Virus record (IMG/VR): IMGVR_UViG_3300035701_000002
Length of the DNA stretch: 64,000 bases
Direction: 5' to 3' (one strand)
Origin: a virus
Under the pieces are notes generated by a model, which was not told where the DNA came from, made no database searches, and was given only the letters and a program-made list of their open reading frames with translations. Shown in pieces: positions 2,366 to 38,322 of the stretch (its first letter is position 1; each line of letters begins with the position of its first letter). A program made the position numbers and the translations under genes.

Positions 2366-4360
2366 ATGTCCAGAAGAAGGAAAGTGCTAACGGCCGTCAC
2401 AGTAGTCCTGGTACTGGCCGCCTTCACGTGGATGTCACTCCCGTATGCGGTGAGGAGGGAGGTCAGAAGGAGGGCGGAGTCCAGAGGACTGAAGGCGGAG
2501 GTCGGGGACGTGAAAGTCCGGCCGGGGAGGATCGAGCTCCGGGACGTGAGAGTGTCGTCGGACCGGCTTCCGGTGAAGCCGTTCGTGATCGGAAAAGTGA
2601 CCGTGCTGACATCGTGGCTCGAGGCTCAGGAAGTAGAGGCGGACGGGGCGTCGCTGGAGATCGACGGGGACGCGGTAGACCTGGTCAAAAAGGTCCAGGA
2701 CATGAAGGGCAAGAGGGAGGGCGGAGGATCCGTGAGGGCGTCCGTGAAGAACTTCAGGATCACGTGGGCCGGCCCATGCTCCGGGTCCGGATCGGCGAGC
2801 GCGGAGGGAGTTTCAGCCTCGTCAGGAACACTGACCGCCGACTCGGTGAGCATATCGTGCTACGGGGTTTCGACAACCGCCCAGAACGTGTCCGCGGGGA
2901 AGGGGCAGGCGAACGCGAAGAGCGTGGAAGCCAAGTATGGTGGATACGTGCTGAGGGCGAGCGGGGTGACCGCAGGTCCGGACGAGAAAGACCTTTGGTC
3001 AAAGCCGTGGGCCAGAGCCGACTCGGCGACGCTGGAAGCGCACGGGGCGACGTTGGAGGCAAAGACAGTGAGGGCGTCGGCCGACGCCATCGAGAGGAGC
3101 GCGAAGGCGGGGGCCGGGACAGCAGTCTTGAAGTACGAAGGCCTTCAGGGCGACGTGCTGGCCGAGAACGTGGAGGTGGGGGCTTCCGGAAAGAAAGAGG
3201 GAGAGCTCGAGCTATCAGTGTCGACGAAGAGCCTCAGCGGCGTGTATAAGGCCGTGACCGGGGACGGCGTAACGGCCATGTCCCTGTCCGGGGGCGGGAC
3301 CATATCGTGGGGGAAGAACTACTCGAAGCCGTGGGGCGCGAGAGGGTGGAGGTTCGCGCTCGGAAGCGCCACAGCGTACGCCAAGGCTGAGGTCAGGGAG
3401 GACGGGTTCTCTGCGGAAGCCGCCCTCGGAGATCCGGGAGGTAGCGGAGCTGCGTGCAATGACCTGCTCACGTCCATCCCGAAGGGGATGGTCCCGAAGC
3501 TCGACGGCTTCGCCGCCGAGGGGCGCGTCCAGGCGGGCGTAAAGGTCGACATGAAAAAGGAGGCGGTCGTACAGGTGACCCTGAAGAACGGATGCAAGTT
3601 CGTCTCGTGGCCAGACAGCATGTCGCCGAAGTCATTGAAGCGAAAGTTCTCGAGGACCGTATACGGGGTGAGGGGAGAGCCCGTCGAGCTGGATTCGGGC
3701 CCCGGGACGAAGGACTGGGTTCCGTACCTGAGGATGTCAAGATTCCTGACAGCGGCCGTCCAGACGACGGAGGACCCGGGGTTCTTCAGGCACAAGGGCG
3801 TGGACGTCGGGGCGGTGGAGAACTCGATCAAGCAGGACATCGAGTCCGGGAAGTTCGTACGGGGGGCGAGCACGGTGACCATGCAGCTGGCGAAGAACCT
3901 GTGGCTCACGAGGTCCAAGACGATCTCGAGGAAAGTGCAGGAAGCGTTCCTCACAACGTACCTGGAGCAGGTTCTGACGAAGGAGGAGATACTCGAGCTC
4001 TACTTCAACATAGTGGAGTTCGGACCGATGCTGTACGGAGTAGGTCCGGCCTCAAGGAAGTACTTCGGGTCGCCTCCGGACGAACTGTCTCTCGGGCAGT
4101 CGTTGTTCCTGACGTCAGTCCTTCCGAGCCCGAAGGCGCAGTGGTTCGGACCTGACGGAAAGATTCAGGAGTCGAGGATGAAGTGGCTCCACGCCATCAT
4201 GGAGACAATGAGGAAAAGGAACCTGGTGTCGGAGGGCGAGCTTCAGGACGGACTTGCGGAGTGGCTGGTGCTAGGGAAGTCCGACCCTGACATCAGGGTT
4301 CCCGAGGCGGGGCCGGTTATCGTGAATCCGGGAGGGCTGGACCCGGACTGGGGACACTGA
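2366..4360 (+). CDS. membrane-anchored AsmA-like protein fused to a C-terminal GT51 peptidoglycan glycosyltransferase (transglycosylase) domain
   Basis: N-terminal TM segment VLTAVTVVLVLAAFTW is followed by an AsmA-like stretch (LKAEVGDVKVRPGRIELRDVRVSSDRLP...). The C-terminus carries GT51 motifs: EDPGFFRHKGVD, TVTMQLAKNLWL, and RKVQEAFLTTYLEQVLTKEEILELYFNIVEFG. The upstream 1916..2365 part of the listed ORF is Ser/Arg-rich and is taken to be non-coding overlap. Confidence 0.6.
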   Translation: MSRRRKVLTAVTVVLVLAAFTWMSLPYAVRREVRRRAESRGLKAEVGDVKVRPGRIELRDVRVSSDRLPVKPFVIGKVTVLTSWLEAQEVEADGASLEIDGDAVDLVKKVQDMKGKREGGGSVRASVKNFRITWAGPCSGSGSASAEGVSASSGTLTADSVSISCYGVSTTAQNVSAGKGQANAKSVEAKYGGYVLRASGVTAGPDEKDLWSKPWARADSATLEAHGATLEAKTVRASADAIERSAKAGAGTAVLKYEGLQGDVLAENVEVGASGKKEGELELSVSTKSLSGVYKAVTGDGVTAMSLSGGGTISWGKNYSKPWGARGWRFALGSATAYAKAEVREDGFSAEAALGDPGGSGAACNDLLTSIPKGMVPKLDGFAAEGRVQAGVKVDMKKEAVVQVTLKNGCKFVSWPDSMSPKSLKRKFSRTVYGVRGEPVELDSGPGTKDWVPYLRMSRFLTAAVQTTEDPGFFRHKGVDVGAVENSIKQDIESGKFVRGASTVTMQLAKNLWLTRSKTISRKVQEAFLTTYLEQVLTKEEILELYFNIVEFGPMLYGVGPASRKYFGSPPDELSLGQSLFLTSVLPSPKAQWFGPDGKIQESRMKWLHAIMETMRKRNLVSEGELQDGLAEWLVLGKSDPDIRVPEAGPVIVNPGGLDPDWGH

Positions 4361-4572
4361 TGAGGGTGTCCGCCAGGACCGGGCATCACTGGATGGTAAG
4401 GGTCCGGTTCATCGGGGATGGGGAGGAGTGGAACGTCGTCTACTGCGCCCGGTGCGGACACGAGATGAACATGAACTATCCGCCGCCGGACGACTGGCTG
4501 GACGTCCTGACGATGACGAAGATCCCTCCGTCGTGCGACGAAAACGCGGTCCTCAGGGTGATGGAGGACTAG
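4360..4572 (+). CDS. small zinc-ribbon protein, HDW/CxxC paralog family, C-terminal tail LRVMED
   Basis: 70 aa with ...GHHW...EEWNVVYCARCG...PSC... and tail AVLRVMED*. Its ATG overlaps the stop of the GT51 gene (ATGA). Confidence 0.5.
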   Translation: MRVSARTGHHWMVRVRFIGDGEEWNVVYCARCGHEMNMNYPPPDDWLDVLTMTKIPPSCDENAVLRVMED

Positions 4573-4853
4573 CGGGAGTAGTCGAGGACCCGGGCGGACG
4601 GGTCCGTCCCGGAGGCGACCCTGCCCATGGCGTCCTTGAAGGCCTTGCGGTCCATGACGTCCACCGGCGAGGCAATGGCGGGCGACAGCCGCCGGCCCCC
4701 GCCGCCAGGGATGCGGGCGGGCATGGCGGCGTCCTTGACCTGGAGGAGGAGGCGCTTCATCTCGGCGGCCACGGCGGCAACGCTCGGACGGCCGGACTCG
4801 TCGATCCCGTCGGCGAGAAGCCTGAGTCTTCGGGAGAGCTCGTCAGGGGTCAT
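4569..4853 (-). CDS. hypothetical protein (94 aa)
   Basis: ORF with normal composition, convergent with the 4360 gene. Confidence 0.4.
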   Translation of the reverse strand: MTPDELSRRLRLLADGIDESGRPSVAAVAAEMKRLLLQVKDAAMPARIPGGGGRRLSPAIASPVDVMDRKAFKDAMGRVASGTDPSARVLDYSR

Positions 4854-4868
4854 GAAGGACCGTACCCG

Positions 4869-5672
4869 TCATGAGTCGCCGGGAGGGGTGACGGGGCCGC
4901 CGATATACTCGGAGACGTCCACGCCCAAGGCGTGGGCGCCCGTGGCGAGCCTGACGGCCTCGGTCCGGGCGTCCTCCTTGGAGAGCCCGGCCTCGAGGCG
5001 AAGCCAGGCGTAGAGGACGAGCCACGCACCATCCGCATGGCCAAAGTAGTGATGGGCATAGATGCCTGGGGAGACAGTCTTCGCAGCCCCAACCGGGCCC
5101 ATGGCGAGGACGGAGCCGCGGAGGCCCACCCAAACGCGCGGAATCTCGAGCCCGGAGTCCGGGGACGTGGCCCACAAAATCGTCTGGCAGACGGTCTCGG
5201 CCTGCTCGGGGGTAGGCACGACGTACTTCCCTCCGGCGGCCCACGGGGCGCTCTGGATGACGTCCGTCCAGGGCCCGCCGGAGGGCGCGATCTTCGGGTC
5301 GTACGGGTTCACGGTCTCGACGCCCACGGACGGGCCGTTGTGCTGAGAGGCGTGCCACAGGAGGTCGGTCGCGAGGTCCCCGTGCTGGTATAGGGTCCCG
5401 TCCGCGTCCGCAATGAAGTGAACCCCGAGGCCCCTGCCGCCGGGGTTGGAGGCGGACTTCGGCTGAAGGACCTGGACGGTGCTCTTCCAGCTCCGCGTCA
5501 CCGTCTCATGGACGACGAACTCCGTGACCGGGGAGGTCCTCTTCTGGTTCGAGAACCTGTAGACGGAGGGGTCCAGGAAGTTCTTCACGGACACGCCGTC
5601 GGGCGGGGCCACGGGCTTTCCGTCCACGATCACCATCTCGGAATCGGAAAGATACGGGTTGTCGTCGGCCAT
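4869..5672 (-). CDS. N-acetylmuramoyl-L-alanine amidase (amidase_2 / PGRP / T7-lysozyme fold), endolysin candidate
   Basis: Motifs VVHETVT and GLGVHFIADADGTLYQHGDLATDLLWHASQHNGPSVGVETVN are present. The start is placed at internal Met MADDNPY (5672), because the upstream part of the listed 351-aa ORF is Ser/Gly/Pro-rich overlap. Confidence 0.7.
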   Translation of the reverse strand: MADDNPYLSDSEMVIVDGKPVAPPDGVSVKNFLDPSVYRFSNQKRTSPVTEFVVHETVTRSWKSTVQVLQPKSASNPGGRGLGVHFIADADGTLYQHGDLATDLLWHASQHNGPSVGVETVNPYDPKIAPSGGPWTDVIQSAPWAAGGKYVVPTPEQAETVCQTILWATSPDSGLEIPRVWVGLRGSVLAMGPVGAAKTVSPGIYAHHYFGHADGAWLVLYAWLRLEAGLSKEDARTEAVRLATGAHALGVDVSEYIGGPVTPPGDS

Positions 5673-5688
5673 GTCTGACCGTACCCGG

Positions 5689-6078: not shown

Positions 6079-6147
6079 GATCTTGGAGCGTTTGCGCTTG
6101 GAGAAGACGTCCGTCACGAGGGTGAGCCTTTGGTAGAGTGATCGGGC

Positions 6148-6654
6148 ATGGCGTTCCTGGGAATAAGGGTACCCGCGGCCGCGGCGGCAGAACTGTCGTC
6201 CATCGCAGTGCCGGAAGGCAGGCGGCTCGAGCCCGGGGAGATGCACATCACACTCCTCTACCTGGGGAAGGACACGCCCCTGGTGTCGGCCCTTGGGGCC
6301 GTCATGGGATCGCACACGGTGGCCAGGGCCTGGAAGCCGTTCACGGTCCACGCCGCCCTCCTCACAAGCTTCCCCAGGAACCCGGACGACGGGGTCCCGG
6401 TGATCGTCCGCGTCGTATCGGAGGAACTCATGAAGTTCCGCGAGGAGGTACGCAGGGCGATGGACCGGATGTCAGTACCGTACTCGAACAAGTACCCCGA
6501 GTACAAGCCGCACGTGACGCTGACCTACGTGGACGAGGAGGGCGTAGCCCCGTCCAGGATCAGGCCCGTGTCGTGGACCGTGGACAGGATGACGGTCTGG
6601 GCCGGCGAGGACATGGACAGCGTCGTCTCGTCGGACGTATACCTGATGGGCTAG
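6148..6654 (+). CDS. 2H phosphoesterase (LigT / 2'-5' RNA ligase / cyclic phosphodiesterase superfamily)
   Basis: Two H-x-T-x motifs (HITL and HVTL) lie about 95 residues apart in a 168-aa protein. The gene is divergent from vsr. Confidence 0.65.
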   Translation: MAFLGIRVPAAAAAELSSIAVPEGRRLEPGEMHITLLYLGKDTPLVSALGAVMGSHTVARAWKPFTVHAALLTSFPRNPDDGVPVIVRVVSEELMKFREEVRRAMDRMSVPYSNKYPEYKPHVTLTYVDEEGVAPSRIRPVSWTVDRMTVWAGEDMDSVVSSDVYLMG

Positions 6655-6935
6655 CCGAGCATGACCTCGGCAACGGAGAGGCGGTCAAGGACGTCGTGCT
6701 CAGAGAGGCCGAAAAAGCAAAGCCTGCAAGGTCCGCCCGGGCGGGGCCAGTCCACGGTGTAGACGTTCTGTCCGCCGGCTTTGTCGAGGGCGACCTCCTC
6801 GCGGCCCTTGTTGACGGAGTCCAGGGTGGAGACGTCCATGGCGAGGTCCGCGAGTCCGACGACGGAATCGGGCGGGAGGGAGTCAAGGACCGCGGAGATC
6901 CTGACGGCAGGGTCAAGTCTACCCATCCTGGACAC
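6651..6935 (-). CDS. hypothetical protein (94 aa)
   Basis: ORF with normal composition. Confidence 0.4.
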   Translation of the reverse strand: MSRMGRLDPAVRISAVLDSLPPDSVVGLADLAMDVSTLDSVNKGREEVALDKAGGQNVYTVDWPRPGGPCRLCFFGLSEHDVLDRLSVAEVMLG

Positions 6936-6958: not shown

Positions 6959-7261
6959 ATGAAAGGGCTGATAGACAGAGCGCTGAGGCTGCTCATGGAC
7001 GGTCTTCGCGGAATGGCAGCGGGAAGCCAGAGGCGAATGGCAGCCAAGTCGATCGTGAAGGTCGAGGCGGACGGCGGGTACCTTCTCAAGTGCGGGTGCC
7101 TCGTGCACGTCAAGCCGACGGACCTGAGGAGGATGATGGAGAACTTCGGGCCCGAGATCGTCCTCGAGGTGGAGCTCGAGGTTGCGAGCAACCACGAGCA
7201 CGCAGGCGCTCCAGCAAGGCGCTCCCGGACGAGGAAGCCCGTGGGGAAGACCGACCCCTAG
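6959..7261 (+). CDS. hypothetical protein (100 aa)
   Basis: ORF with normal composition; short plus-strand island. Confidence 0.4.
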   Translation: MKGLIDRALRLLMDGLRGMAAGSQRRMAAKSIVKVEADGGYLLKCGCLVHVKPTDLRRMMENFGPEIVLEVELEVASNHEHAGAPARRSRTRKPVGKTDP

Positions 7262-7905
7262 TCGTCCATGATGTCCGACACGAGGCGCTCCCTCCAGCTC
7301 TGAAGGAGGTCGTCCTCGGACAGGACGTCGTGGCTAAGGTTCTCGCGGACGAAGCGCTCGAGCCTCTTCATCTGGGAGACGCGCTCCTTGGCGACGAACT
7401 CGGCGACGGCCTTCTCCACTATCGGACCGGAGGACGCGCGGGCCTCGGACACGGCGGCTTCGACGGCGGCGCTGAGGGCGGCCAGGGGCTCATTTCCGAC
7501 CATCTTGTTGAGGATCTCGAAGACGGCCTTCCTGGATACGCGCAGGGAGACGGTGGGCGTGAACGACTTCTCGAGGCGCTCGACGACGTTCCCGGCGAGA
7601 TGGTTCCATCCGGACGCCAGGAGGACCTTGCCTGTGGACCACAGCAGGACGGACGCGTTGTTCGTCACGACCGTCTGCAGGCGGTTGTCGTATCCGAGGG
7701 AGACCTTCACGGCGCAGTCCGGCCCGGCCACGCGCGAGAGAAGGAGCTCGCGGGCGTGAAACACGAACGAGGACTCGTGCCTCCGGACGTACTCGAGCGA
7801 GTCCTCATCCCCGCACATGACGGGGACGATCAGTCCGAACCGGAAGGAGAGCCTGGAGGCGAGCTGCGAGTCCAGGACCGATAGGAGGGAGGCCCGGGCG
7901 TCCAA
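7258..7905 (-). CDS. hypothetical protein (215 aa)
   Basis: ORF with normal composition; ends ...LVSDIMDD*. Confidence 0.5.
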   Translation of the reverse strand: MDARASLLSVLDSQLASRLSFRFGLIVPVMCGDEDSLEYVRRHESSFVFHARELLLSRVAGPDCAVKVSLGYDNRLQTVVTNNASVLLWSTGKVLLASGWNHLAGNVVERLEKSFTPTVSLRVSRKAVFEILNKMVGNEPLAALSAAVEAAVSEARASSGPIVEKAVAEFVAKERVSQMKRLERFVRENLSHDVLSEDDLLQSWRERLVSDIMDD

Positions 7906-8197: not shown

Positions 8198-10537
8198 TCA
8201 GATCTTTACTTCCTTCTCCAGAAGCTCGGACTTGAACTCGATCTTCTGACCGTCGACGTCGACGGTCATTGTGTTCTCGTCGAGGCTCTTGAACTCGGAG
8301 AACCAGACCTGGCCGACGATGAGGCTGAAGGTCGTCTTGGCGATCTCGAAGATGAGGCCGCGGACGGTCTTCTTGGAGGCCTTCGCCTCCCCCTCGAGCC
8401 ACGCCTCGAGGACCTTGTCCTTGTCGGCCGCCTTCTTGTAGATCGGGCTCGCGAGAAAGGCCTCCGTGTCGTCGTACGCGGACTTCATCAGGAGGCCGCC
8501 CGGATTGAGCTTCCCCTTCGCCACCTGCTCGCGGAGCTCCTTCAGGGACGGGAGCTTGGACAGGCCCTTCAGGGACGTCTTGAGCTCCTTGCTCATGTAG
8601 AGGTCGGTGGACTCCGCCTGGACGGACTTCGGGTTGAAGCCGCCGTCGGTGATGCCCTGCTCCTTGAGCCAGGCCGCGGCCTCATCGCCGTACTGCGAGG
8701 CGATGCCCTCCGCCTTCTTGGAGGGGAGGAGCTCCTTGACGTATGCGTTGAAGACCTTCTGCGCGGCCTGGGCCTTCGTAAGCTCGTAGTTGCGGACGAA
8801 GAAGTCCTTCGCGCTCACGTCCTTCACCATCTTCCGGTTGATCACCGGGAGGGTGTCGAGGAAGACCAGCGCGCGCCCGTCGCCGTCGATCGTCATCGCC
8901 CCCTGAGGGACCGTGCCGTCGCGGAGGAGGCCGGTGAGCTTCTGGTTCGTCTCCTTCGAGAGCTTCACGGGGAGCGTCTTGACGTTCACGAGGCCGTCCT
9001 TGACGACCGCGTAGTTGCGGAAGACGGAGGTCGGGAACTTGGCGGGGATCCTCTTCGCGACGTCGCCCGACGCGCGCGCCGAGACGTCCACGATCCCGGG
9101 CTTGCGGACGAGGACCGAGATGTTCGGACGGTCCTCGTTGTACGTGAGGTTCGCGATAGAGTACCCGTCCGGGGCCGGATCGGCCTCGAACCTGAGAGCC
9201 TCGGGCTTGGACGAGATGGCCGCGATCTTCGAGGCGAAGTCGGCGATCTTCTTCGCGTCCTTGGTCTTCCCCATCTCGGAGGTGAGCTTCTCGACCTCGG
9301 CCTGCTCCTCGTCGGTCAGGACGGACGAGGCGTCGACGCGCCCGCGCCCGATGCGCGAGTACTTGAAGCTCGGATCCTCGAGAAGGAGCCGGTTTCCGTC
9401 GTCCTCCGAGAGGATCCGGAGCATGTCGAGGACGGTGAAAGCGTCGTCGCGCGGGACCTTGTCCGGATCCCAGCCGGCGGTCCACCGGGCCTTCGGATCG
9501 AACGCGGCCGCCTTGGCGGCGTCCATGAACTCCGAGTACTTCTGCTTTCCGAAGCAACCGCCGAACTGCTCGATGAACCGAACGTCGCCGGTCGACCTGA
9601 GGAGGGGGAGGACGACGTCCGGCTTCATGCGGACGCTGAAGAGCGACACGGCGGCGTACGCGGAGTCGACGAAGGGAACGGCCTTCTGGGCCTTCGAGGC
9701 GTCGGAGACGGACTCGGGGCTCTTGTCCCCGACGGCGCTCGGCGACAGATACCAGACCTCGGCGAGGTCCTCGGGGACGTGCGCCTTCCCGCCCTCGACG
9801 GAGAAGGTGACGAGATCGCCGGCGACGAGGGCCCAGGCGAACCCGCCGACGGTGTCGGCCTTGACCTGGATCTCCGCGCGCGGGGCTCCGGAGAGGGTCT
9901 TCTGCATGGCCGCCTCGAAGAGCGGAGCGTACTTGTCGAAGTCGTCCGCGAAGATGAGGCTGCCTCCGGCCTTCTCGGCCATCGCGGTGAGGAGGGGGCG
10001 GTCAGCGTAGTAGCCGTATTCGACGAAGGTCGACGAGGAGAAGCTCCCCGCGGCCTTCTCGACGGCCTTGAGGAGGTCCTGGCGCGGCCATTGGTTGTCG
10101 CATCCGTCGCTCATGAAGAAGAGCGAGAAGGCGCTGCCGGGGAGCTTCTTGGCGACGCGGGCGACGAGGGCGGCGGCCTCCTCGATCGGCTCCTTGAAGC
10201 CGGTCATGCCGACGGTCTTGAGCCAGCGGTCTATCGCGGCGTTCACGTCCTTGAGGTCCGCGAGGGTGGCGACGGGCTCGGCCTCGAGTAGAGTGCCGAA
10301 CTGGCCCCGTCCGGAGAACCACACGATGCTGATCGTGTCCTTCTCCTTCAGCATCTTCGGGAGCTTCTTCTTGAGCTGCTCGCGGATGCGCGGGAGGTCC
10401 GAGCACATGCTCCCGGAGCAGTCGATGACCGCCACGTGGTTGACGGGGGTCTCTACCGGCTTCTTCGGGGCGCCCTTCCCGACCTCCTGACGAACGAGGT
10501 ACAGGGAGTCGGAAACCTTGTGGGACGTGGTCTTCAT
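8198..10537 (-). CDS. von Willebrand factor type A (VWA) domain protein, 779 aa
   Basis: N-terminal MIDAS elements are present (VIDCSGSM ... FFMSDGCDN). The C-terminal region is long and uncharacterised. Confidence 0.7.
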   Translation of the reverse strand: MKTTSHKVSDSLYLVRQEVGKGAPKKPVETPVNHVAVIDCSGSMCSDLPRIREQLKKKLPKMLKEKDTISIVWFSGRGQFGTLLEAEPVATLADLKDVNAAIDRWLKTVGMTGFKEPIEEAAALVARVAKKLPGSAFSLFFMSDGCDNQWPRQDLLKAVEKAAGSFSSSTFVEYGYYADRPLLTAMAEKAGGSLIFADDFDKYAPLFEAAMQKTLSGAPRAEIQVKADTVGGFAWALVAGDLVTFSVEGGKAHVPEDLAEVWYLSPSAVGDKSPESVSDASKAQKAVPFVDSAYAAVSLFSVRMKPDVVLPLLRSTGDVRFIEQFGGCFGKQKYSEFMDAAKAAAFDPKARWTAGWDPDKVPRDDAFTVLDMLRILSEDDGNRLLLEDPSFKYSRIGRGRVDASSVLTDEEQAEVEKLTSEMGKTKDAKKIADFASKIAAISSKPEALRFEADPAPDGYSIANLTYNEDRPNISVLVRKPGIVDVSARASGDVAKRIPAKFPTSVFRNYAVVKDGLVNVKTLPVKLSKETNQKLTGLLRDGTVPQGAMTIDGDGRALVFLDTLPVINRKMVKDVSAKDFFVRNYELTKAQAAQKVFNAYVKELLPSKKAEGIASQYGDEAAAWLKEQGITDGGFNPKSVQAESTDLYMSKELKTSLKGLSKLPSLKELREQVAKGKLNPGGLLMKSAYDDTEAFLASPIYKKAADKDKVLEAWLEGEAKASKKTVRGLIFEIAKTTFSLIVGQVWFSEFKSLDENTMTVDVDGQKIEFKSELLEKEVKI

Positions 10538-10912: not shown

Positions 10913-11881
10913 TCAGCTCTTCGGGTTGACGGCCCAGCCGCCCTTGCGGAACCAGTCCATGTTTTTCTCGAGGAGCTGGGGGTATGTGCCCACGCCGCGG
11001 TTCGACTGCGCCCGGGAGAGCGCCTCGATCTCGGACATGCCGACGTCGGAGCGCTGGTTCTTGACCAGGTGCTGAAGGAGGGCCTTCGGGGAGCCGGTCG
11101 GCGTCCCGTGCCTCTTTTCCCACTCCTTGCCCTTGGCGACCGCGGGAGGGTTGGCGAGGACGTCGGCGATGATCTGCTTGAGCTCTCGCGCGATCATCGC
11201 GGAGTCGACCTGGGCCTCGACGATGTTCTCCTGGGCGTCGATGAGGAGGTCGACGTCGCCGATGTCGACGGCGCCGGAGATGGCCCCGCCGCCGGAGCCC
11301 TCGCCCTCACCCTCGTGCGTGTCGGCGCAACCGCCGCCGAGGAGCTTGTTGTAGTAGCACGCGGTGACGTAGAGCTCGACGAGGGCCCCGCCCTTCGTAT
11401 GGCCCTTCCACGGGCCGGCCGGGGTCTCCGGGACGGCAGGGGCCTTCAGGCCCCTCGGGGGGACGGGGCGCTCAGAGTCGGGCTTCTCCGACTTGAAGAC
11501 GTGGGGGTCGTAAGTGCACTGGACGAGGATGCCGCCGATGAGGAGCTCGGCGTCCCAGGACATCGGGCGGACGCCGAAGGAGACATACCCGTCGCGGAAG
11601 CCCTTGCCCCCGGGGTTGGTGTCATAGTAGTCCCCCATGCTGAACTCGCCGGGGACTGCCTTCACAATCTCGGCCATGAGGGCATCCCTCAAGGTCAGAC
11701 CGAGGGTCCTACTGGTGGCGAGGAGGAGCCTCGCGAGCGCCGACGCGACACGGCTCCGGCTCGGCGAGTCCGACGACTCGATGACGGAGGCGATGAACCT
11801 GAGGCGGAAGGACAGATCACCCGGCTGCATGCCGTGGGGAAGGGATAGAAGACCTAGGGGGTAGGCGCCGGAGGCGGACAC
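10913..11881 (-). CDS. hypothetical protein (322 aa)
   Basis: Long ORF with normal composition and a Gly-rich acidic linker. Confidence 0.5.
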
Positions 11882-13318: not shown

Positions 13319-13498
13319 TCAGGATTTCATGATCTGGCGGACGACCTCGTCCATGCAGTCCGGCCGGGGGCGGCTCGAGTCGGGCGCACGAAAGCCGCAG
13401 ACCTGGCAGACCTCCTCCCAGTACGGCTTGCTCCCATAATGGTTGCGGACCGGCACCCAGACGTGGCCCTGAGGGTCCGGTCTTCGAGAATCGGGCAT
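13319..13498 (-). CDS. small zinc-ribbon protein (59 aa), HDW/CxxC paralog, tail VVRQIMKS
   Basis: Translated here by hand: MPDSRRPDPQGHVWVPVRNHYGSKPYWEEVCQVCGFRAPDSSRPRPDCMDEVVRQIMKS*. It is below the 60-aa cutoff of the ORF track. Confidence 0.45.
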   Translation of the reverse strand: MPDSRRPDPQGHVWVPVRNHYGSKPYWEEVCQVCGFRAPDSSRPRPDCMDEVVRQIMKS

Positions 13499-13945
13499 TC
13501 AGGATTCCATGACCTGCTTGACGGCCTTCACCCTGTCTCGGTACAGGGCGTCCGGGGCGAGAGAGTACTCGATCTCGTAGCAGTCCGGGAGCTTGGCCCA
13601 GAAGCGCTGGTTGCGGGCCGGCTTCTGGCCCTTCATCACCTTCCACGAAATGCTGTCGAAGTCGCTCCCGACCTGGAGCGCAGACTTGCTGAAGGTCCGG
13701 ATGTAGACGCGGTCGCACTCCAAGACAGAGCCCTTGGGCAAGGTCATCCTGAGGGACTTCAGCCTGCCGTACTGCGAACGGCCGGCCGCGTCCTTCTCGT
13801 ATCCGTCCCTCCACGGGTCGAACTTCGCTGGGACGAGCTTGTGCTCCTGGGCGAACTTGACGTTTCGCCTCTCGAGGTAGAGGTCGAACTCCCAGGCCTT
13901 CTCGAGGGTGATGCGGTCGCCGCACGCGGGGATGAACAGCTTCAT
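13499..13945 (-). CDS. hypothetical protein (148 aa) with C-terminal tail VKQVMES
   Basis: ORF with normal composition; ends ...RVKAVKQVMES*. Its start codon overlaps the stop of the upstream ORF (ATGA). Confidence 0.5.
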   Translation of the reverse strand: MKLFIPACGDRITLEKAWEFDLYLERRNVKFAQEHKLVPAKFDPWRDGYEKDAAGRSQYGRLKSLRMTLPKGSVLECDRVYIRTFSKSALQVGSDFDSISWKVMKGQKPARNQRFWAKLPDCYEIEYSLAPDALYRDRVKAVKQVMES

Positions 13946-14178
13946 GACTCCATGACCTCCAGGATGGCCTCACGGGCCAGATCGCCGAACAAGTGTTCCC
14001 CGAGCTTGAGGCACAGGGCCGCGACGCGGCGGAGCTCGGTCTGGAGTTCGGCGTCGGCGCGGAACTTCGACCTTCCCGACCGGAGCTTCCTCAGGAGGGT
14101 ACGCTGACGGACGGCCAGGTTCCGCCGCGTCTTGCGAAGACGGACGGCCTTCTTCCATTCCTCCTGGGTCGGCATCAT
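13942..14178 (-). CDS. hypothetical basic protein (78 aa) with C-terminal tail ILEVMES
   Basis: ORF ends ...AREAILEVMES*. Confidence 0.45.
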   Translation of the reverse strand: MMPTQEEWKKAVRLRKTRRNLAVRQRTLLRKLRSGRSKFRADAELQTELRRVAALCLKLGEHLFGDLAREAILEVMES

Positions 14179-15804: not shown

Positions 15805-16098
15805 TCATGTCTCCATGACCTGGCGAACACGCCCTTCGTCGCAGTCGTGCCGGTCGAGCTGCTCGGTCGGGTCCGGAACGATGACCTCGTCGTGGACGAA
15901 GTGGTCATATAGGACGGGCTCCGCGGTGCCGCACTCGGAGCACACCCAGAAGAGCTTCCCCTGGTTCCAAGGATGGTCCGGAGAGAACTGGGAGGCGGAC
16001 CGGGCGTGGAGCCGCTCCCGCTGGACGAAGTCCCACCGGCGCCCCCTCGAGTCCTCGTGGAAGCGCTCGTGGAAGCCCTTTCCGTTGACTTCTTTCAC
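15805..16098 (-). CDS. small zinc-ribbon protein (97 aa), HDW/CxxC paralog, tail RVRQVMET
   Basis: ...SPDHPWNQGKLFWVCSECG...HDC...RVRQVMET*. Confidence 0.5.
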   Translation of the reverse strand: MKEVNGKGFHERFHEDSRGRRWDFVQRERLHARSASQFSPDHPWNQGKLFWVCSECGTAEPVLYDHFVHDEVIVPDPTEQLDRHDCDEGRVRQVMET

Positions 16099-16805: not shown

Positions 16806-16831
16806 CGAAAGGAACTAGCCGGAGCTAGTTC
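16806..16831 (-). terminator. stem-loop immediately after the major capsid gene stop (GAACUAGC-UCCG-GCUAGUUC, then CUUUCG)
   Basis: Perfect 8-bp inverted repeat gaactagc/gctagttc at 16812-16831, overlapping the MCP stop codon. A second 9-bp inverted repeat tttcgaccc/gggtcgaaa lies at 16772-16810. Confidence 0.45.
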
Positions 16832-20008: not shown

Positions 20009-21628
20009 TTAACAATTGGAGATCGAGGAAATCCGGCCCTTCCAGGTCAGAAATCCTCTTTCTGAGGCGGAGAGATCCCTTCCGAGTCTCGACCTGCACG
20101 CGGCAAGGTACGAGGTCTCGCTCGGGAAGTTCTTCATGGCGCCGACGTTCATTGCGACCTTGTAGAGGGCGGAATTGTACTCCCGTCCCCTGCAGCGGTC
20201 CTCGATCCATGAAAGGACTATCAAGTCCCTCGGGGTCATGCCGGCCTTCCTCACGCCTGCGGCGCCGTGCTGGTGCACGACCTTCCACGCGGAGGTGGCC
20301 CAGCGGATCAGTCTCTCGTTCCCGGGGAACTTCGACCTGAGCCTGCGCCCGAACTCCTCGGAGGAGCGGACGATACTGTCGTTCGCGGACTCGAGGTTAA
20401 CAGGCGACGAGACCGTCCCGACGTCCTCGGGCTTCGGAGCGAGCTTCTCGCCGAGCTTCTCGACCATGATGGTCATGAGCTGCTCTTGGGCCTTCTCGAG
20501 GAGCTCGTCGAGCTTGTCGGACTTGGGCTTCGATCCGGCGTCGGACTGTCCGCCCTGATCCTGTCCGCCCTGATCCTGTCCGCCCTGGTCGCCGCCCTGA
20601 TCAGATTGATCTTGACTCTGACCCGCGCCTTGATCCTGTCCGAAGAGATCTTCCTGGCCCTGGCCCTGGCCCTGGCCCCCAGCCTGATCCTGGCCCCCAG
20701 CCTGATCCTGCCCCTGGTCGGCTTGAGCCTTGCGCGTGGATGCGGCCTTCTTGACGCCGTCCATCTCGGGAATGGAGCTACGGAGGATCTGGACCGAGCG
20801 CGACCTGTCCATCTGTGCCGCGTACTGACTGGAGTCGGGGTTCAGAATGTTCCTACGGACGGCCCCGCGGAATGCCGGATTCCTGACCCAGCTGGCCTCG
20901 ATGAACTGGTTGGAGTTAGGGACGGAGACGTGCCCGATGACCTCGGACAGCGGATGCTCCACGCCGTCCTCGTCGGAGAACTTCGAACCCTTACCGTCGT
21001 ACTGGACGCACGGGCAGAGCTGGGAGTCGTCGGACGCGACGTTCCCGCACTTGGTGCAGATGGTGAAGAGGCTGATGCACCCCATGGACAGGCCGGTGAT
21101 CGCGCCCGTGAGGATGTCCGACACGAGCTGATTGTGCTTGCGGTCGGTGGCGACGAGGATGTCGATGTAGCAGCTCTTGCCGAGATCGCGGGCGATAGCG
21201 TCGACGATGAAGCCCTTGGAGAGCTCCGGGAGCTGGATGTGCTCGAGGTAGTTGTGAGCGCCGATGAAGGTGCGGTAGCTCGAGAGGAGCAGAGAGCGCT
21301 CCCATGCGTCGCCGTTGTTGTTGATGATGTCGTGGCAGTCGGGGACGATGCGGAAGTCCGGCCAGCGTGCGTCGATCTGGACGCCCCGGTTCATCGTCCT
21401 GCCGGTCTTCGACCCCTTCGGGGCGTAGCAGTCGACGGACGCGACGATCGTAGCGTGCGAGAGAAGGTACTGCTTCGGATCGCACTTGCGGAGGATCGTC
21501 TTCGCGGTACGGGCGACGAAGTCCTTGGGGACCGCGCCCTCGTTCTGGCCGCGGAGCTCCTCCATCCATTCGTCGAACGCAATGTTGGTGCGCTCAACGA
21601 TGGCGCTGGCATACCGCTTTGTGGCCAT
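20009..21628 (-). CDS. hypothetical head-module protein (539 aa) with GQDQ repeats
   Basis: Long ORF with normal composition and an internal (GQDQ)n low-complexity tract. Confidence 0.55.
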   Translation of the reverse strand: MATKRYASAIVERTNIAFDEWMEELRGQNEGAVPKDFVARTAKTILRKCDPKQYLLSHATIVASVDCYAPKGSKTGRTMNRGVQIDARWPDFRIVPDCHDIINNNGDAWERSLLLSSYRTFIGAHNYLEHIQLPELSKGFIVDAIARDLGKSCYIDILVATDRKHNQLVSDILTGAITGLSMGCISLFTICTKCGNVASDDSQLCPCVQYDGKGSKFSDEDGVEHPLSEVIGHVSVPNSNQFIEASWVRNPAFRGAVRRNILNPDSSQYAAQMDRSRSVQILRSSIPEMDGVKKAASTRKAQADQGQDQAGGQDQAGGQGQGQGQEDLFGQDQGAGQSQDQSDQGGDQGGQDQGGQDQGGQSDAGSKPKSDKLDELLEKAQEQLMTIMVEKLGEKLAPKPEDVGTVSSPVNLESANDSIVRSSEEFGRRLRSKFPGNERLIRWATSAWKVVHQHGAAGVRKAGMTPRDLIVLSWIEDRCRGREYNSALYKVAMNVGAMKNFPSETSYLAACRSRLGRDLSASERGFLTWKGRISSISNC

Positions 21629-21707: not shown

Positions 21708-22262
21708 ATGGCGGACAAGATAACTGAGGCCATCGGACGTGTCAGGGTGAAGAAGGTCGAGGTCGTCCTTTCGGAGGGGAAGGTCCTGCCGAGAGTCCCG
21801 ACGTCAGGCCTCTGGCCGAGGGTCACCCTGGAGCTGGACGGGACGGAGCGGACGGTTCCGCTCACATGGTGGGCTGACGAAAAGAAGGCGGCCAGCGACC
21901 CGCTCAAGGCCATCATGGAAGGGATCGGGGGCGACATCCTCAGAATGGCCGGCGGAAGGACTACAGCCTCGATGCCGAGGGGCCGGAGGCCGGCGCTCGA
22001 GTACGCGGTGTCGGAGGCGAACTCGAAGATCCGAAGAGCGGTCGACCGCGCCTCCCAGACAAAGGGAGGGGTCGGGGAGAGGCACAGGAAGGCGCAGAAG
22101 AGGGCCCTGAAGAAGAGAGTGCTGGAGAAGCTGCGCGGACAGTTCGAGAGCCTGATCCGGATGGAGAGGCTCGAACTCGAGGATCTGGGCGGGGCGGACG
22201 TGGGCCGCGCGTGGGACGACATCCTGAAGATGAAGGCCGTCCGCCACGTGATGGAGACCTAA
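21708..22262 (+). CDS. hypothetical protein (184 aa) with C-terminal tail AVRHVMET
   Basis: Internal Met MADKITEAIG of ORF 21486..22262. Single plus-strand gene inside the head module. Confidence 0.45.
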   Translation: MADKITEAIGRVRVKKVEVVLSEGKVLPRVPTSGLWPRVTLELDGTERTVPLTWWADEKKAASDPLKAIMEGIGGDILRMAGGRTTASMPRGRRPALEYAVSEANSKIRRAVDRASQTKGGVGERHRKAQKRALKKRVLEKLRGQFESLIRMERLELEDLGGADVGRAWDDILKMKAVRHVMET

Positions 22263-26146: not shown

Positions 26147-26368
26147 GTGTTCGGAAGACGAAAAGAGAGTCCGGGTCAGAAGGCCCGGAGGAAATCGAAG
26201 GCCTTTGAGAGGGCTCTCGGAATGAGGCCGCACGACTGGACACCAGTCGTCAAGGACGGGACTACGTGGGTCTGGCGGTGTACACGGTGCGCAGCACGGT
26301 GTGGAAAGCCATCAGAGACGCCGGGGACGTGCGGAGAAGAAGTAGTCCGGTACGTGACGGAGGTCTAG
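26147..26368 (+). CDS. small zinc-ribbon protein (73 aa; possible start at 26222), HDW/CxxC paralog
   Basis: ...RPHDWTPVVKDGTTWVWRCTRCAARCG...GTCGEEVVRYVTEV*. Very similar to 29077. Confidence 0.45.
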   Translation: MFGRRKESPGQKARRKSKAFERALGMRPHDWTPVVKDGTTWVWRCTRCAARCGKPSETPGTCGEEVVRYVTEV

Positions 26369-26565
26369 GACTCCTGGACGTCAAGGACGGCATGAAGGTC
26401 GTCCTCCATGGACTCGACATGAGCCTGGAGGTCCTGGTAAACGGTCTTACAGACAGGACAGAGCGAGTCGAGCCTACGCCGGCCTCTCTTGACGTCCGAG
26501 AGCCTGATCGTCGGATTCGCCGCCAGTTCGAACATCGGGACTTCGACCCTGCGGCCCTGGATCAT
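26365..26565 (-). CDS. small CxxC protein (66 aa), tail LDVQES
   Basis: ...LCPVCKTVYQDLQAHVESMEDDLHAVLDVQES*. Confidence 0.35.
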   Translation of the reverse strand: MIQGRRVEVPMFELAANPTIRLSDVKRGRRRLDSLCPVCKTVYQDLQAHVESMEDDLHAVLDVQES

Positions 26566-28772: not shown

Positions 28773-29042
28773 CTACTCTCCAGGAGGTCCAAAGGCTACC
28801 CTGAAGGCGATCTTCTTGAGCCTCCGGGCTTGGACGAAATCCTCGAGGACATCCTCGAGGACCTTGACTGAGGCCATGTCGCCGGCCATCAGGCTCTCCC
28901 AGGAGCCGCCGCCCTCCCGGAAGCTCCGGTATACGGAGACAAAGTCTTTCCCGGACGTCTTCTCGTCAGGCCCATAGATATGATCCATGACCTGGCGAAC
29001 AATCCGGTAGGCAGTCGTGTCCTTTACGCCGGCGCCTTCCAT
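28773..29042 (-). CDS. hypothetical protein (89 aa; alternative start at MDHIY) containing internal RIVRQVMDH motif
   Basis: ORF with normal composition. The DNA motif cgccaggtcATGgat carries a candidate start codon. Confidence 0.4.
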   Translation of the reverse strand: MEGAGVKDTTAYRIVRQVMDHIYGPDEKTSGKDFVSVYRSFREGGGSWESLMAGDMASVKVLEDVLEDFVQARRLKKIAFRVAFGPPGE

Positions 29043-29076: not shown

Positions 29077-29310
29077 TCAGGACTCTTGAACGTGCTGGAC
29101 GTAAACGTCGGCGCACGTCAGGCCTTTCTCCCCGGGGGCGGGACCGCTAACCCCTCGCTTCTGGGAGAAGGGCTTGGGGAGAACCACGAGCATGTGGGCG
29201 GGAGGCTGAACCTTGCTGATGCGGACGCACTGGCAGCGAGAGCACACCCAGGTCGTGTCCTTGGTCGGAAAGGGCCTAGTCCAATCGTGATCCGCGGGCC
29301 GGAGACTCAA
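29077..29310 (-). CDS. small zinc-ribbon protein (77 aa), HDW/CxxC paralog, tail VQHVQES
   Basis: ...ADHDWTRPFPTKDTTWVCSRCQC...LTC...VYVQHVQES*. Confidence 0.5.
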   Translation of the reverse strand: MSLRPADHDWTRPFPTKDTTWVCSRCQCVRISKVQPPAHMLVVLPKPFSQKRGVSGPAPGEKGLTCADVYVQHVQES

Positions 29311-36281: not shown

Positions 36282-36283
36282 GT

Positions 36284-36547: not shown

Positions 36548-36581
36548 GTCTCACCCTTTGCCACGGGACCCGATAGAGAGC

Positions 36582-37493: not shown

Positions 37494-37544
37494 GGACGGG
37501 CGGCGAAAAGAAGCCCAACCTAGGACGGAAGTGTACCCTGGACC

Positions 37545-38066
37545 ATGGCGCTATGGGATTGGGAGGGCGGGGATCCGAAGTGGTCGTTCGTGGTGGACAC
37601 GGACTCGTACGCCGGAAACTTCGAGCGGGAGATGAGCAGCTACATAGTCGGGCAGTGCGACGAGTACGGGGACCACCGCGGAGGCCCGTACAAGAAGATG
37701 TACATGAAGGACTTCAAGGGCAAGGACCCCTTCGAGAACCTGGTTGAGGAACGGGTCAGCGACCCGGGGGACGACGGCATTATGCGCGCCCCGATGGACC
37801 TAGCCCCGACGCCCGGATATGAGAGCAACGGCGCGGGGGGCACCCTCTATTTTGCGTCGTCATGTCCAAAACATCCGGCCTACAACTCGGTGGCGATCTT
37901 CCTTAGCAGAAGGCCGACGGCGAAGGAGCTCACGATGCTGGCCGACAGGGCCAGGAGGTTCGCCGGGGCGACGAAGATTTTCGGGGAGACGCTGAAGGTC
38001 ATCGGATGCAGGCTGGTCAAGGAGACGGTCCTGCTGGAGTCCGAGGACGTTGTTGCCCCGGAGTAG
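37545..38066 (+). CDS. hypothetical protein (173 aa)
   Basis: ORF with normal composition; plus-strand island. Confidence 0.5.
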   Translation: MALWDWEGGDPKWSFVVDTDSYAGNFEREMSSYIVGQCDEYGDHRGGPYKKMYMKDFKGKDPFENLVEERVSDPGDDGIMRAPMDLAPTPGYESNGAGGTLYFASSCPKHPAYNSVAIFLSRRPTAKELTMLADRARRFAGATKIFGETLKVIGCRLVKETVLLESEDVVAPE

Positions 38067-38322
38067 GACCGCCGGCCCCAGGAGAGAGGCCCACGACTGG
38101 GAGCACGGATGGAAGGACGTGCCGTCCGGGAAGATATACCCGTATGACCACGGACTTCCGTTCGAGGTGGCCCAAGACAGGCTCGTGAGATCCTGGAGGT
38201 GCAGGAGGTGCGGCGCATCGGAGAGTTCGAGCCGCAGGCCGTCCGTGTACAAAAAGGTCTACGCCGGAATGAAGAACCTTCTGTGCGACGAGTACGTGAC
38301 CTGGCAGGTCATGGAGTCATAG
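38050..38322 (+). CDS. small zinc-ribbon protein (90 aa), HDW/CxxC paralog, tail VTWQVMES
   Basis: ...EAHDWEHGW...SWRCRRCG...LLC...VTWQVMES*. Confidence 0.5.
   Translation: MLPRSRTAGPRREAHDWEHGWKDVPSGKIYPYDHGLPFEVAQDRLVRSWRCRRCGASESSSRRPSVYKKVYAGMKNLLCDEYVTWQVMES

What the first reader, a model, noticed from the sequence alone, without database searches (positions are those of the whole stretch)
4360..38322. Conserved C-terminal tail V-[RK]-[QH]-V-M-E-[ST]-stop shared by at least 9 otherwise unrelated small ORFs
The tail appears as RVRQVMET* (15805), AVRHVMET* (21708..22262), VVRQIMKS* (13319), VKQVMES* (13499), ILEVMES* (13942), TWQVMES* (38050) and LRVMED* (4360). Looser versions are ELVMAS* (55455), VQHVQES* (29077) and LDVQES* (26365). 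The motif RIVRQVMDH occurs internally, or around an alternative start, in 28773..29042. Wobble positions vary (gtc/gtg/atc, gag/gaa, tca/tcc/aca/acc) and so do the stop codons, which argues for selection on the peptide rather than on a fixed DNA site. A common C-terminal short linear motif on many small phage proteins suggests a shared docking partner. Candidates include a capsid/portal packaging receptor, a protease or unfoldase adaptor, the phage clamp, or RNAP. I am not aware of a described system using this tail.
Basis: seen in the sequence. Interest (0 to 1): 0.75.

Follow-up and report, generated by a model that had tools for sequence, protein, structure and literature searches.

The report
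Shared C-terminal tag on phage proteins
Thirteen small proteins of this large phage, and about a third of the small proteins in sampled regions of related huge phages, end in the same eight-residue tail (V-x-x-V-M/H/Q-E-S-stop) on unrelated protein bodies, which looks like an undescribed address tag read by one common partner.

Summary
In the window, 13 ORFs end in hydrophobic(-7)-x-x-[V/I](-4)-[M/Q/T](-3)-E/D-small-stop. [VI]M sits at exactly -4/-3 in 9 of 79 called genes, against 0.2 expected.

"Otherwise unrelated" is half wrong. Six, perhaps seven, carriers are paralogs of one small, unannotated zinc-finger-like family (HxW...W.CxxC...C-D-E-x2-V-x2-V-M-E-S). The others are truly unrelated: an SH3-like barrel, a helical protein, a 184-aa protein and more. 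Profile comparison aligns only the last 7 residues.

The window is a large phage with portal, large terminase and prohead protease. The same tail ends 90 of 242 genes of 300 aa or less, and 0 of 30 larger ones, in the window plus four related huge-phage loci. There it also sits on ankyrin, DnaJ-type and a second zinc-finger family. Distant relatives whose homolog lacks the tail have no tails nearby.

Synonymous codons vary freely, and many tails lie at convergent gene ends or before long gaps, so this is not a Shine-Dalgarno site or a DNA element.

Best reading: a C-terminus-anchored sorting or docking tag. My favoured receptor, at about 30%, is the prohead, by analogy with the T4 capsid-targeting sequence. 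No receptor was tested. I found no prior description.

The parts
4360..4572 (+). Zn-finger-like family (FAM) member, 70 aa, ends CDENAVLRVMED*. The tail codons are 4546-4569 and the stop is 4570-4572. It lies at a convergent gene end.
   Evidence: The identical protein P0001 is in the database. The tail-less outside HMM gives E=1.4e-4.
6651..6926 (-). 91-aa protein with no family signature, ends LSVAEVMLG*. It lies at a convergent gene end.
   Evidence: Coding score 35.
7258..7905 (-). 215-aa protein with no family signature, ends RLVSDIMDD*. It lies at a convergent gene end.
13319..13498 (-). FAM member, 59 aa, ends CMDEVVRQIMKS*.
   Evidence: It is P0003. HMM E=6.4e-5.
13499..13945 (-). Family D, 148 aa: an SH3-like beta-barrel body (PHROG 22676) followed by a tail helix, ending YRDRVKAVKQVMES*.
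13942..14178 (-). Family C, a 78-aa basic protein that looks helical from its sequence (not modelled), ends LAREAILEVMES*. Its ortholog in L017 ends ...EIARGIHES*.
15805..16098 (-). FAM member, 97 aa, with CxxC...HxC then tail, ends HDCDEGRVRQVMET*.
   Evidence: AF2 pLDDT 73, tail is helix 86-96. HMM E=1.9e-4.
21708..22262 (+). Family F, 184 aa, ends LKMKAVRHVMET*. It is convergent with 22269-23234(-), and its start faces the start of the prohead protease gene (divergent).
   Evidence: The identical protein is called on a 203-kb contig. Orthologs at 71, 55 and 41% identity end AVRYVMET, AVRYVMET and VVSEVMET.
26147..26368 (+). Probable FAM member, 73 aa, with a variant tail CGEEVVRYVTEV*. It is convergent with the next part and shares CTAG with it as stop codon.
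   Evidence: HMM E=1.8e-3.
26365..26565 (-). 66-aa CPVC zinc-finger protein just downstream of the portal gene, ends LHAVLDVQES* (Q variant).
   Evidence: (phrog_9929, E=1.3e-4).
29077..29310 (-). FAM member, 77 aa, just downstream of the large terminase gene, ends CADVYVQHVQES* (Q variant).
   Evidence: P0005. HMM E=8e-16. The outside relatives P0024 and P0034 end VMES and VHES.
38050..38322 (+). FAM member, about 89 aa, ends CDEYVTWQVMES*. It is convergent with the sigma region-4 protein gene.
   Evidence: P0002. HMM E=1.8e-9.
55455..55781 (-). 108-aa protein with the FAM pattern (HDW...W.CxxC...C). Family membership is marginal. It ends CDKARDLEAELVMAS*.
   Evidence: orthologs end VMTT, VMLM and VMMS. 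HMM E=0.15.
28773..29042 (-). Internal near-perfect tail YRIVRQVMDH at residues 12-21, not followed by a stop. It is not counted as a functional tail and may be a relic or chance.
   Evidence: Internal matches overall occur at the chance rate.
20009..21628 (-). Prohead (head maturation) protease homolog. It is a candidate reader of the V-x-E-small end of the tail. This is inference only.
   Evidence: phrog_18299 E=1e-7, phrog_2774 E=8.5e-19. No Pfam or PDB relative.

Best explanation
The tail is a modular peptide tag anchored at the C-terminus. Its consensus is [D/E](-11)-E(-10)-x-x-V(-7)-x-x-[V/I](-4)-[M/H/Q](-3)-[E/D](-2)-[S/A/T/G](-1)-COOH. It forms one short amphipathic helix that always stops two residues after the M/H/Q.

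In a clade of large and huge phages it has been attached to many unrelated small bodies that are mostly binding modules rather than enzymes. These include two zinc-finger families, an SH3-like barrel, ankyrin repeats, a DnaJ-type finger and small basic proteins with helical-looking sequences. The tail is kept by selection on the protein.

The simplest way this works is that one clade-specific receptor or machine recognises the helix face together with the free C-terminus, so that every tagged protein is handled in the same way.

Shown here: the motif, its strict position, its peptide-level conservation, its presence on unrelated folds, and its all-or-none distribution among genomes.

Inferred: that a common receptor exists.

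My single most likely guess for the receptor, at about 30%, is the prohead interior (core or protease). The tail would then be a C-terminal counterpart of the T4 capsid-targeting sequence, loading an arsenal of small binder or inhibitor proteins into the head for co-injection. The [V/I]-x-E-small ending would be the prohead-protease-type site.
For: Position-specific enrichment of about 85- to 250-fold at -4, with none internally.

90 of 242 genes of 300 aa or less carry the tail, against 0 of 30 larger genes, in the window plus L017-L020. Fisher P=4e-6, median carrier length 88 aa.

ORFs of at least 40 aa ending in the tail, counted in all frames, per locus: 19 (L022), 25 (L023) and 20 (L019), against about 0.04-0.2 expected.

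Bodies are unrelated. hhalign of FAM against D aligns only the last 7 columns, and family B against FAM or D aligns nothing. 163 carriers fall into 126 BLAST clusters once tails are trimmed. Pfam finds only ankyrin, DnaJ_CXXCXGXG, DUF4116, a Gp23 fragment and three weak single-member hits.

Conservation is at peptide level. Wobble positions vary, Ser uses TCN and AGC, and all three stops occur. Synonymous divergence is 0.50 in the tail against 0.40 and 0.63 in core blocks.

Orthologs keep the tail and end at exactly the same position: 119 of 120 for family D, FAM and F.

The tail is an add-on. The homolog in Xanthomonas phage XaC1 stops before it, and the homologs in LR745206, L028 and L029 lack it. 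Those loci hold zero tail-ending ORFs.

The residue at -3 shows a genome-level preference across families (chi2=53.9, P=3e-7).

For the capsid guess: the phage has a prohead protease homolog. T4, phiKZ and SPN3US proteases all cut after Glu in short motifs, and T4 uses a 10-residue terminal tag on unrelated internal proteins (PMC9026906, PMC5694885). Window carriers 26365 and 29077 sit just downstream of the portal and large-terminase genes, and 21708 sits beside the protease gene.
Against: No receptor was identified or tested.

The tag is C-terminal, whereas the T4 tag is N-terminal.

Cutting after E(-2) would remove only one residue. E(-2) is not invariant (about 61% E, 11% D).

If density elsewhere in these genomes is as high as in the sampled regions, tens to perhaps more than a hundred tagged proteins per genome is many for head cargo.

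The protease homolog has no Pfam S77 match, so its specificity is unknown.

No portal, capsid or protease candidate in the window carries the tail.

The loci L017-L023 were chosen around one tail-bearing gene in regions rich in small genes, so the one-third figure is not a genome-wide estimate.

The genome bias at -3 is partly confounded by recent paralogy, and mixed genomes exist (L014, L018).

The AF2 tool gave no contact map, so I cannot exclude that the helix packs on its own body.
Confidence: 0.6

Rival explanations
1. The tail is a degron, or the hub-docking end of adaptor proteins. It binds a host or phage AAA+ protease or unfoldase (or another hub). Tagged proteins would then either be cleared on schedule or deliver the targets bound by their variable bodies.
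For: The invariant distance to the free C-terminus is typical of C-terminal degrons and of the SspB tail that binds ClpX (own knowledge). The bodies are binding modules such as ankyrin, SH3-like and zinc fingers. Fast-diversifying paralog arrays suggest an arms race. The architecture parallels poxvirus ankyrin/PRANC adaptors (own knowledge).
Against: The tail ends in an acidic and a small polar residue, unlike the known bacterial C-degrons LAA or LRVVK. No protease or unfoldase with a known C-terminal peptide-binding domain was found in the window. It is conserved across phages of 47-63% GC, which argues against dependence on one host factor.
Confidence: 0.2
2. The tail is a self-contained structural element, either a capping helix or a homo-/hetero-oligomerisation helix of common origin. 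It spread by domain shuffling and has no common external receptor.
For: AF2 predicts a helix of reasonable confidence in both models (pLDDT about 82 in family D, about 64 in FAM). The hydrophobic pattern i, i+3, i+4 is amphipathic.
Against: There is no reason for the same eight residues and the same exact end to be kept on SH3-like, zinc-finger, ankyrin and helical-looking bodies. About 12 residues is short for a stable coiled coil. The all-or-none distribution among genomes points to a genome-level factor.
Confidence: 0.1
3. The tail docks small regulators onto the transcription machinery, for example the phage protein with two sigma region-4 domains, or host RNA polymerase.
For: A protein with two region-4 domains is encoded at 38326-39102 next to a family member. 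Sigma region 4 is known to bind amphipathic helices (own knowledge). Expansions of zinc ribbons in phage G were suggested to be transcription factors (PMC7824862).
Against: Ankyrin, SH3-like and 250-aa bodies are not typical transcription factors. Dozens of tagged proteins in 20 kb is a lot for one docking site. No test was possible.
Confidence: 0.07
4. The tail is a by-product of a nucleic-acid signal at gene ends. Candidates are a Shine-Dalgarno or translational-coupling site for the next gene (ATGGAG, CAGGAG and GAGG all contain SD cores), or a stoperator-like protein-binding DNA site.
For: VME, VQE and VHEG codons do contain GGAG, AGGAG or GAGG. Some tails overlap the next start as ATGA.
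Against: Seven of 13 window tails are at convergent gene ends. Many others are followed by gaps of 50-685 nt. GAA, CAC/CAT and all Val and Ser codons are used freely, and synonymous divergence equals that of the gene cores. The DNA motif shows little or no excess outside the tails: 4 scattered non-tail hits against 2.0 expected, three of them antisense to called genes. Positions -7, -10 and -11 are also conserved.
Confidence: 0.02
5. The tail is a nascent-peptide signal that pauses the ribosome at the stop codon, which would explain the fixed distance to the stop.
For: The spacing to the stop codon is strict. The conserved stretch of about 8-12 residues would lie in the exit tunnel (inference).
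Against: Known arrest peptides sit in short leader ORFs and usually end in Pro (own knowledge). Here the carriers are folded domain proteins, a third of the small genes, and many have no downstream gene to regulate.
Confidence: 0.03

Closest known systems
T4 capsid-targeting sequence (CTS) of internal proteins IPI-III and other head proteins
   Same: A short terminal peptide of about 10 residues is shared by otherwise unrelated small phage proteins encoded in variable loci. It is helix-like with spaced hydrophobic residues and ends in a hydrophobic-x-Glu motif of the kind cut by prohead proteases (PMC9026906, PMC5694885).
   Different: The T4 tag is N-terminal and is removed as a propeptide. 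This tail is at the extreme C-terminus, and a cut after Glu would release one residue. There is no sequence homology, and packaging was not tested.
C-terminal hub-docking tails: SspB tail and ssrA tag for ClpX, clamp-binding tails of T4 gp43/gp33/gp55, PIP boxes
   Same: Many proteins share one short motif at or near the free C-terminus, and a single hub reads it.
   Different: The consensus sequences do not match (LAA, LRVVK, QL[SD]LF, Qxx[LIM]xx[FY][FY]). Here the carriers are small accessory proteins, not replication or transcription enzymes.
Poxvirus ankyrin/PRANC (F-box-like) and similar viral adaptor expansions
   Same: Large, fast-evolving paralog sets with variable binding bodies (including ankyrin repeats) and a constant C-terminal docking element.
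   Different: PRANC is a folded domain of about 40-50 residues that binds host Skp1. Here the element has 8-12 residues, occurs in bacteriophages, and has no known hub.
Lineage-specific expansions of zinc ribbons in jumbo phages, for example about 35 copies in Bacillus phage G (PMC7824862)
   Same: Multiple small zinc-binding paralogs in one large phage genome.
   Different: No shared terminal tail across unrelated families was described. The FAM and B families here match no Pfam or PHROG model.
Mycobacteriophage stoperators and start-associated sequences
   Same: Conserved sequence recurring near gene boundaries in one orientation relative to transcription.
   Different: Those are DNA sites independent of reading frame. 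Here conservation is in the peptide, with free synonymous change.

Membership tests
T4-type capsid-targeting sequence | Short terminal peptide shared by unrelated small phage proteins | tested here: met
T4-type capsid-targeting sequence | Located at the N-terminus and removed as a propeptide | tested here: not met
   The tail is at the extreme C-terminus.
T4-type capsid-targeting sequence | Ends in a prohead-protease site (hydrophobic-x-Glu, cut after Glu) | tested here: inconclusive
   The sequence pattern [VI]-x-[E/D]-small is present. Cleavage is not testable here, and the protease homolog is of unknown specificity.
T4-type capsid-targeting sequence | Tagged proteins are found inside virions | not testable with these tools
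   Needs virion proteomics.
Sliding-clamp binding motifs (bacterial QL[SD]LF, PIP box, T4 gp45-binding tails) | Match to the consensus, and presence on polymerase, ligase or transcription factors | tested here: not met
   The consensus lacks the aromatic or Leu end, and Q(-5) is not conserved. The ligase, helicase and clamp-loader genes lack the tail.
ssrA-type C-degron / SspB ClpX-binding tail | Non-polar or basic C-terminal consensus (LAA, LRVVK) | tested here: not met
   The tail ends [E/D]-[S/A/T/G].
Shine-Dalgarno / translational coupling by-product | A co-directional start codon within about 15 nt downstream, and conserved GGAG at DNA level | tested here: not met
Frame-independent DNA repeat (stoperator-like) | The same DNA word in other frames, intergenic positions or both orientations | tested here: not met
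   little or no excess outside the tails (4 scattered non-tail hits against 2.0 expected).
One paralogous protein family (the tail is simply the family's end) | Carriers are detectably homologous outside the tail | tested here: not met
   True for six window ORFs. False between FAM, D and B and for most of 163 carriers.
Any Pfam / PHROG family covering the tail or the FAM zinc finger | Significant profile match | tested here: not met
   Only the body of family D matches PHROG 22676, and that match does not include the tail.

The most novel reading that the evidence does not exclude
The tail is a proteome-wide sorting code of a huge-phage clade. A third or more of the small proteins would be marked for one dedicated phage machine through recognition of the exact C-terminus. 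The single residue after the conserved Glu may act as a leaving group for a Glu-specific protease or transpeptidase. Processing would then switch binding off, or covalently attach the protein, in the way sortases, asparaginyl ligases or ubiquitin-like precursors use short C-terminal leaving groups.
Probability: 0.12. Interest if true: 0.92.

Novelty: new variant of a known kind. Interest (0 to 1): 0.8.

Why it matters
Most genes of huge phages are small ORFs of unknown function. A shared, strictly positioned tail on a large share of them in the sampled regions would divide this dark matter into tagged and untagged classes. It gives one experimental handle (a peptide bait or a GFP-tail fusion) for finding the machine that reads it. 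It may also reveal how these phages deliver or control large arsenals of small host-directed binders. If the receptor is the prohead, the tail would also be a ready-made tag for loading foreign proteins into large capsids.

Tried and rejected
Shine-Dalgarno artefact. This was my first idea, because VME, VQE and VHEG codons contain SD cores. I rejected it because of the convergent gene ends, the long downstream gaps and the free synonymous variation.

Fixed DNA element or recombination scar. Rejected. Sequence after the stops is not conserved.

Strict concerted M-to-H switch per genome. L003 and L005 suggested it, but L014 and L018 are mixed. Only a statistical genome bias remains.

Searches that found nothing:
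- megablast of 20 kb against INPHARED phages;
- both metagenome-contig scans;
- Pfam and PHROG on the carriers;
- PDB sequence search with the protease;
- three literature searches for a described shared C-terminal motif in jumbo or huge phages.

Technical failures:
- My own gene caller fails in the high-GC loci, so I switched to a census of stop-to-stop ORFs in all frames with an internal-offset null.

The clamp-binding motif, the ClpX tags and a metal-site idea for M/H/Q with E and the carboxylate were considered from memory only. The first two do not fit the consensus. The third could not be tested.


Full report
**What the window is**

The 64-kb window has 60-67% GC. Most of its genes lie on the minus strand.

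It is part of a large tailed phage. It encodes:
- a portal protein (26562-28364), a large terminase subunit (29307-31253) and a head maturation protease homolog (20009-21628);
- a weak HK97-type capsid match (16830-17720);
- a replication and nucleotide-metabolism block with clamp loader, RecD2 helicase, class II ribonucleotide reductase, NAD-dependent ligase, flap endonuclease, primase and PD-(D/E)XK nuclease.

Identical proteins sit on metagenome contigs of up to 160-203 kb. No near-identical DNA exists in the INPHARED phage collection.

**Checking the observation**

I found three more: 6651-6926(-) VAEVMLG*, 7258-7905(-) VSDIMDD* and 26147-26368(+) VRYVTEV*.

- Among 79 called genes, [VI]M lies at exactly -4/-3 in nine, against 0.21 expected (P about 2e-12). 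It occurs at no other offset within the last 11 residues.
- [VI][MHQ][ED] occurs internally at the chance rate (24 observed, 26 expected). At position -4 it occurs 9 times against 0.11 expected.

**Peptide or nucleic acid?**

My first suspicion was a Shine-Dalgarno site for the next gene, because ATG-GAG, CAG-GAG and GAG-G all contain SD cores. The data reject it.

- Seven of the 13 window tails lie at convergent gene ends with no co-directional downstream gene: 4572, 6651, 7258, 22262, 26368/26365 and 38322.
- In related loci many tails are followed by gaps of 50-685 nt.
- Val is coded by GTC, GTG, GTT, GTA and ATH. Glu is GAG or GAA, His is CAC or CAT, Ser is TCN or AGC, and all three stop codons occur.
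- In ten orthologs of the 148-aa protein, identical amino acids use different codons in 50% of pairs within the last 14 codons. The figures for two conserved core blocks of the same gene are 40% and 63%.
- The DNA word GTSATGGAR occurs ten times against 2.0 expected. Six are the tails. The other four are scattered, three of them antisense to called genes.

**"Otherwise unrelated" is half wrong**

Six of the carriers share invariant H-x-W, W, C-x-x-C and a Cys at about -12. These are 4360, 13319, 15805, 26147, 29077 and 38050.

A profile built only from ten outside sequences, with their tails removed, finds these six among 1,069 window ORFs. The E-values are 8e-16, 1.8e-9, 6.4e-5, 1.4e-4, 1.9e-4 and 1.8e-3. 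ORF 55455 is marginal at 0.15.

This small zinc-finger-like family, here called FAM, matches no Pfam or PHROG model. A full profile search of 1.84 billion representatives returned only 29 hits. The 18 small new ones I read all look like genuine members, and nearly all end C-[DE]-x3-[VI]-x2-[VI]-[MH]-E-S.

**The motif does cross family boundaries**

The protein at 13499-13945 (family D):
- matches PHROG 22676 over residues 1-128;
- gives an AF2 model with pLDDT 87, a beta-rich body followed by a terminal helix at 135-147;

Profile-profile comparison of FAM with family D aligns only the last seven columns, V~qVMes against vk~Vmes.

Of 120 listed homolog clusters of family D, 119 end Y-R-D-R-V-K-x-[VIF]-[KR]-x-[VI]-[M/H/Q/L]-E-[S/A/G] at exactly the same position. 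They come from contigs of up to 445 kb.

More distant homologs lack the tail. These are in Xanthomonas phage XaC1, an uncultured 635-kb phage, and loci L028 and L029.

The 184-aa protein at 21708-22262 is a real gene. Its orthologs at 41-71% identity all end ...VMET. The basic 78-aa protein at 13942-14178 has an ortholog in L017 that ends ...GIHES.

**Scale in related phages**

I fetched 20-kb regions around family D genes from several huge-phage contigs.

| Locus | Contig size | Called genes ending in the tail |
|---|---|---|
| L017 | 93 kb | 15 of 49 |
| L018 | 377 kb | 19 of 45 |
| L019 | 116 kb | 27 of 55 |
| L020 | contigs up to 445 kb | 17 of 42 |

Pooled with the window, 90 of 242 genes of 300 aa or less carry the tail, and 0 of 30 larger genes do. 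Fisher P=4e-6, median carrier length 88 aa.

A census of all stop-to-stop ORFs, free of gene calling, gives 19 tail-ending ORFs in L022 (393-kb contig) and 25 in L023 (436-kb contig). An internal-offset null gives about 0.1-0.2 for these two loci.

Carriers include:
- an ankyrin-repeat paralog set;
- a DnaJ-type CxxCxGxG protein;
- a DUF4116 repeat protein;
- a second small CCCH zinc-finger family (family B), present as a tandem array of ten or more genes;
- many proteins with no recognisable feature.

Family B shows no profile similarity to FAM or D. With tails trimmed, 163 distinct carriers fall into 126 BLAST clusters. This overestimates the true number of families, because small zinc fingers diverge beyond the reach of BLAST.

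Loci where the family D homolog has no tail contain no tail-ending ORFs at all. These are L028, L029, XaC1 and LR745206. The same holds for L013.

These loci were chosen around one tagged gene in regions rich in small genes. The one-third figure is therefore not a genome-wide estimate.

**Anatomy of the tag**

From 103 tails:

| Position | Residues |
|---|---|
| -11 | D/E/N |
| -10 | E (or L) |
| -7 | V (less often A, L, I) |
| -4 | V or I |
| -3 | M, H or Q |
| -2 | E (61%) or D (11%) |
| -1 | S, then A, T, G |

Family B adds an [S/T]-x-x-E-[F/W/Y] helix cap. The hydrophobic positions follow an i, i+3, i+4 pattern, which makes one face of a short helix.

The residue at -3 differs between genomes and across families. 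The window, L008 and L020 are mostly M. L019 and L003/L005 are mostly H or Q. L018 is mixed (chi2=53.9, P=3e-7). Mixed genomes, and paralogs that share a residue by descent, mean this is a tendency and not a clean concerted switch.

**How it most likely works**

Four features point to a recognition tag read by one clade-specific receptor or machine that also senses the free C-terminus:
- the same eight residues on unrelated folds;
- the invariant end two residues after M/H/Q;
- peptide-level selection;
- the all-or-none distribution among genomes.

The large number of carriers favours a transient signal read by a machine (packaging, proteolysis or translocation) over a stable one-to-one partner.

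The recognisable bodies are binding modules, not enzymes. No replication, nucleotide-metabolism or structural protein carries the tail. This argues against an import signal for a replication compartment.

My favoured receptor, at about 30%, is the prohead.
- T4 uses a 10-residue terminal capsid-targeting sequence on unrelated internal proteins from variable loci (PMC9026906).
- The prohead proteases of T4, phiKZ, 201phi2-1 and SPN3US all cut after Glu within short motifs (PMC9026906 and PMC5694885).
- The tail ends [V/I]-x-E-small, and this phage has a prohead protease homolog.

Against this guess:
- the tag is at the other terminus;
- a cut would free only one residue;
- E(-2) is not invariant;
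- the number of carriers is high for head cargo.

A degron or adaptor-docking role (about 20%), a self-contained structural or oligomerisation helix (about 10%) and docking to transcription machinery (about 7%) remain open.

**Novelty**

No Pfam or PHROG model covers the tail or the FAM family. Three full-text searches found no description of a shared C-terminal motif in jumbo or huge phages.

Shared terminal tags are a known kind of device. This one is new in sequence, in position and in scale. I therefore rate it a new variant of a known kind, with a small chance of being something categorically new.

Noticed in passing
window 38326-39102 (-): A 258-aa protein with two sigma-70 region-4 domains and no detectable region 2 (Pfam Sigma70_r4 8e-17, two stretches). 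It is convergent with zinc-finger family member 38050-38322.
   Followed up: no
window 54092-55201 (+) and 52645-53463 (-): The NAD-dependent DNA ligase appears split. The adenylation and OB domains are in one gene, and the HhH and BRCT domains are in a separate gene on the opposite strand. The same arrangement is seen in the related locus L001.
   Followed up: partly
window 1916-4360 (+) and 4869-5672 (-): A large protein (814 aa from the longest start) carries a penicillin-binding-protein-type GT51 transglycosylase domain (E=7e-45). An Amidase_2 protein is encoded nearby. A GT51 domain is an unusual cell-wall enzyme for a phage.
   Followed up: no
window 28773-29042 (-): An internal YRIVRQVMDH at residues 12-21 is a near-perfect copy of the tail, not followed by a stop. 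It may be a relic of a tagged ORF fused to the next gene, or chance.
   Followed up: partly
window 26365-26368: Two convergent tail-bearing genes (26147-26368 + and 26365-26565 -) overlap by four bases. The palindrome CTAG serves as the stop codon for both.
   Followed up: no
L019 10893-13444, and further copies elsewhere in L019 and L018: A tandem array of ten or more paralogs of a second small zinc-finger family (MKC...C..AT.FF...C..H). All end in [ST]xxE[FWY]...V..V[HQ]E-x. There is no Pfam match and no profile similarity to the first family.
   Followed up: partly
L003 4793-5110 and L005 9694-10011: A 105-aa protein contains the conserved T4 gp23 'GIQPM' capsid-protein segment (Pfam Gp23, E=1.5e-6), followed by a Cys cluster and a VHES tail. 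This is a capsid-protein fragment carrying the tag.
   Followed up: no
window 12642-13295 (-), 11854-12645 (-), 8198-10537 (-), 42455-42982 (-): Weak match to a dual-specificity phosphatase domain, a collagen-repeat protein, a 779-aa VWA-domain protein and a 'putative phage metallopeptidase' (PF18894).
   Followed up: no
L008 15534-18020; L003 13084-14253: The related phage contigs carry a response regulator and a histidine kinase pair (judged by eye from the translated ORFs), and an EF-Tu homolog (Pfam GTP_EFTU domains).
   Followed up: no
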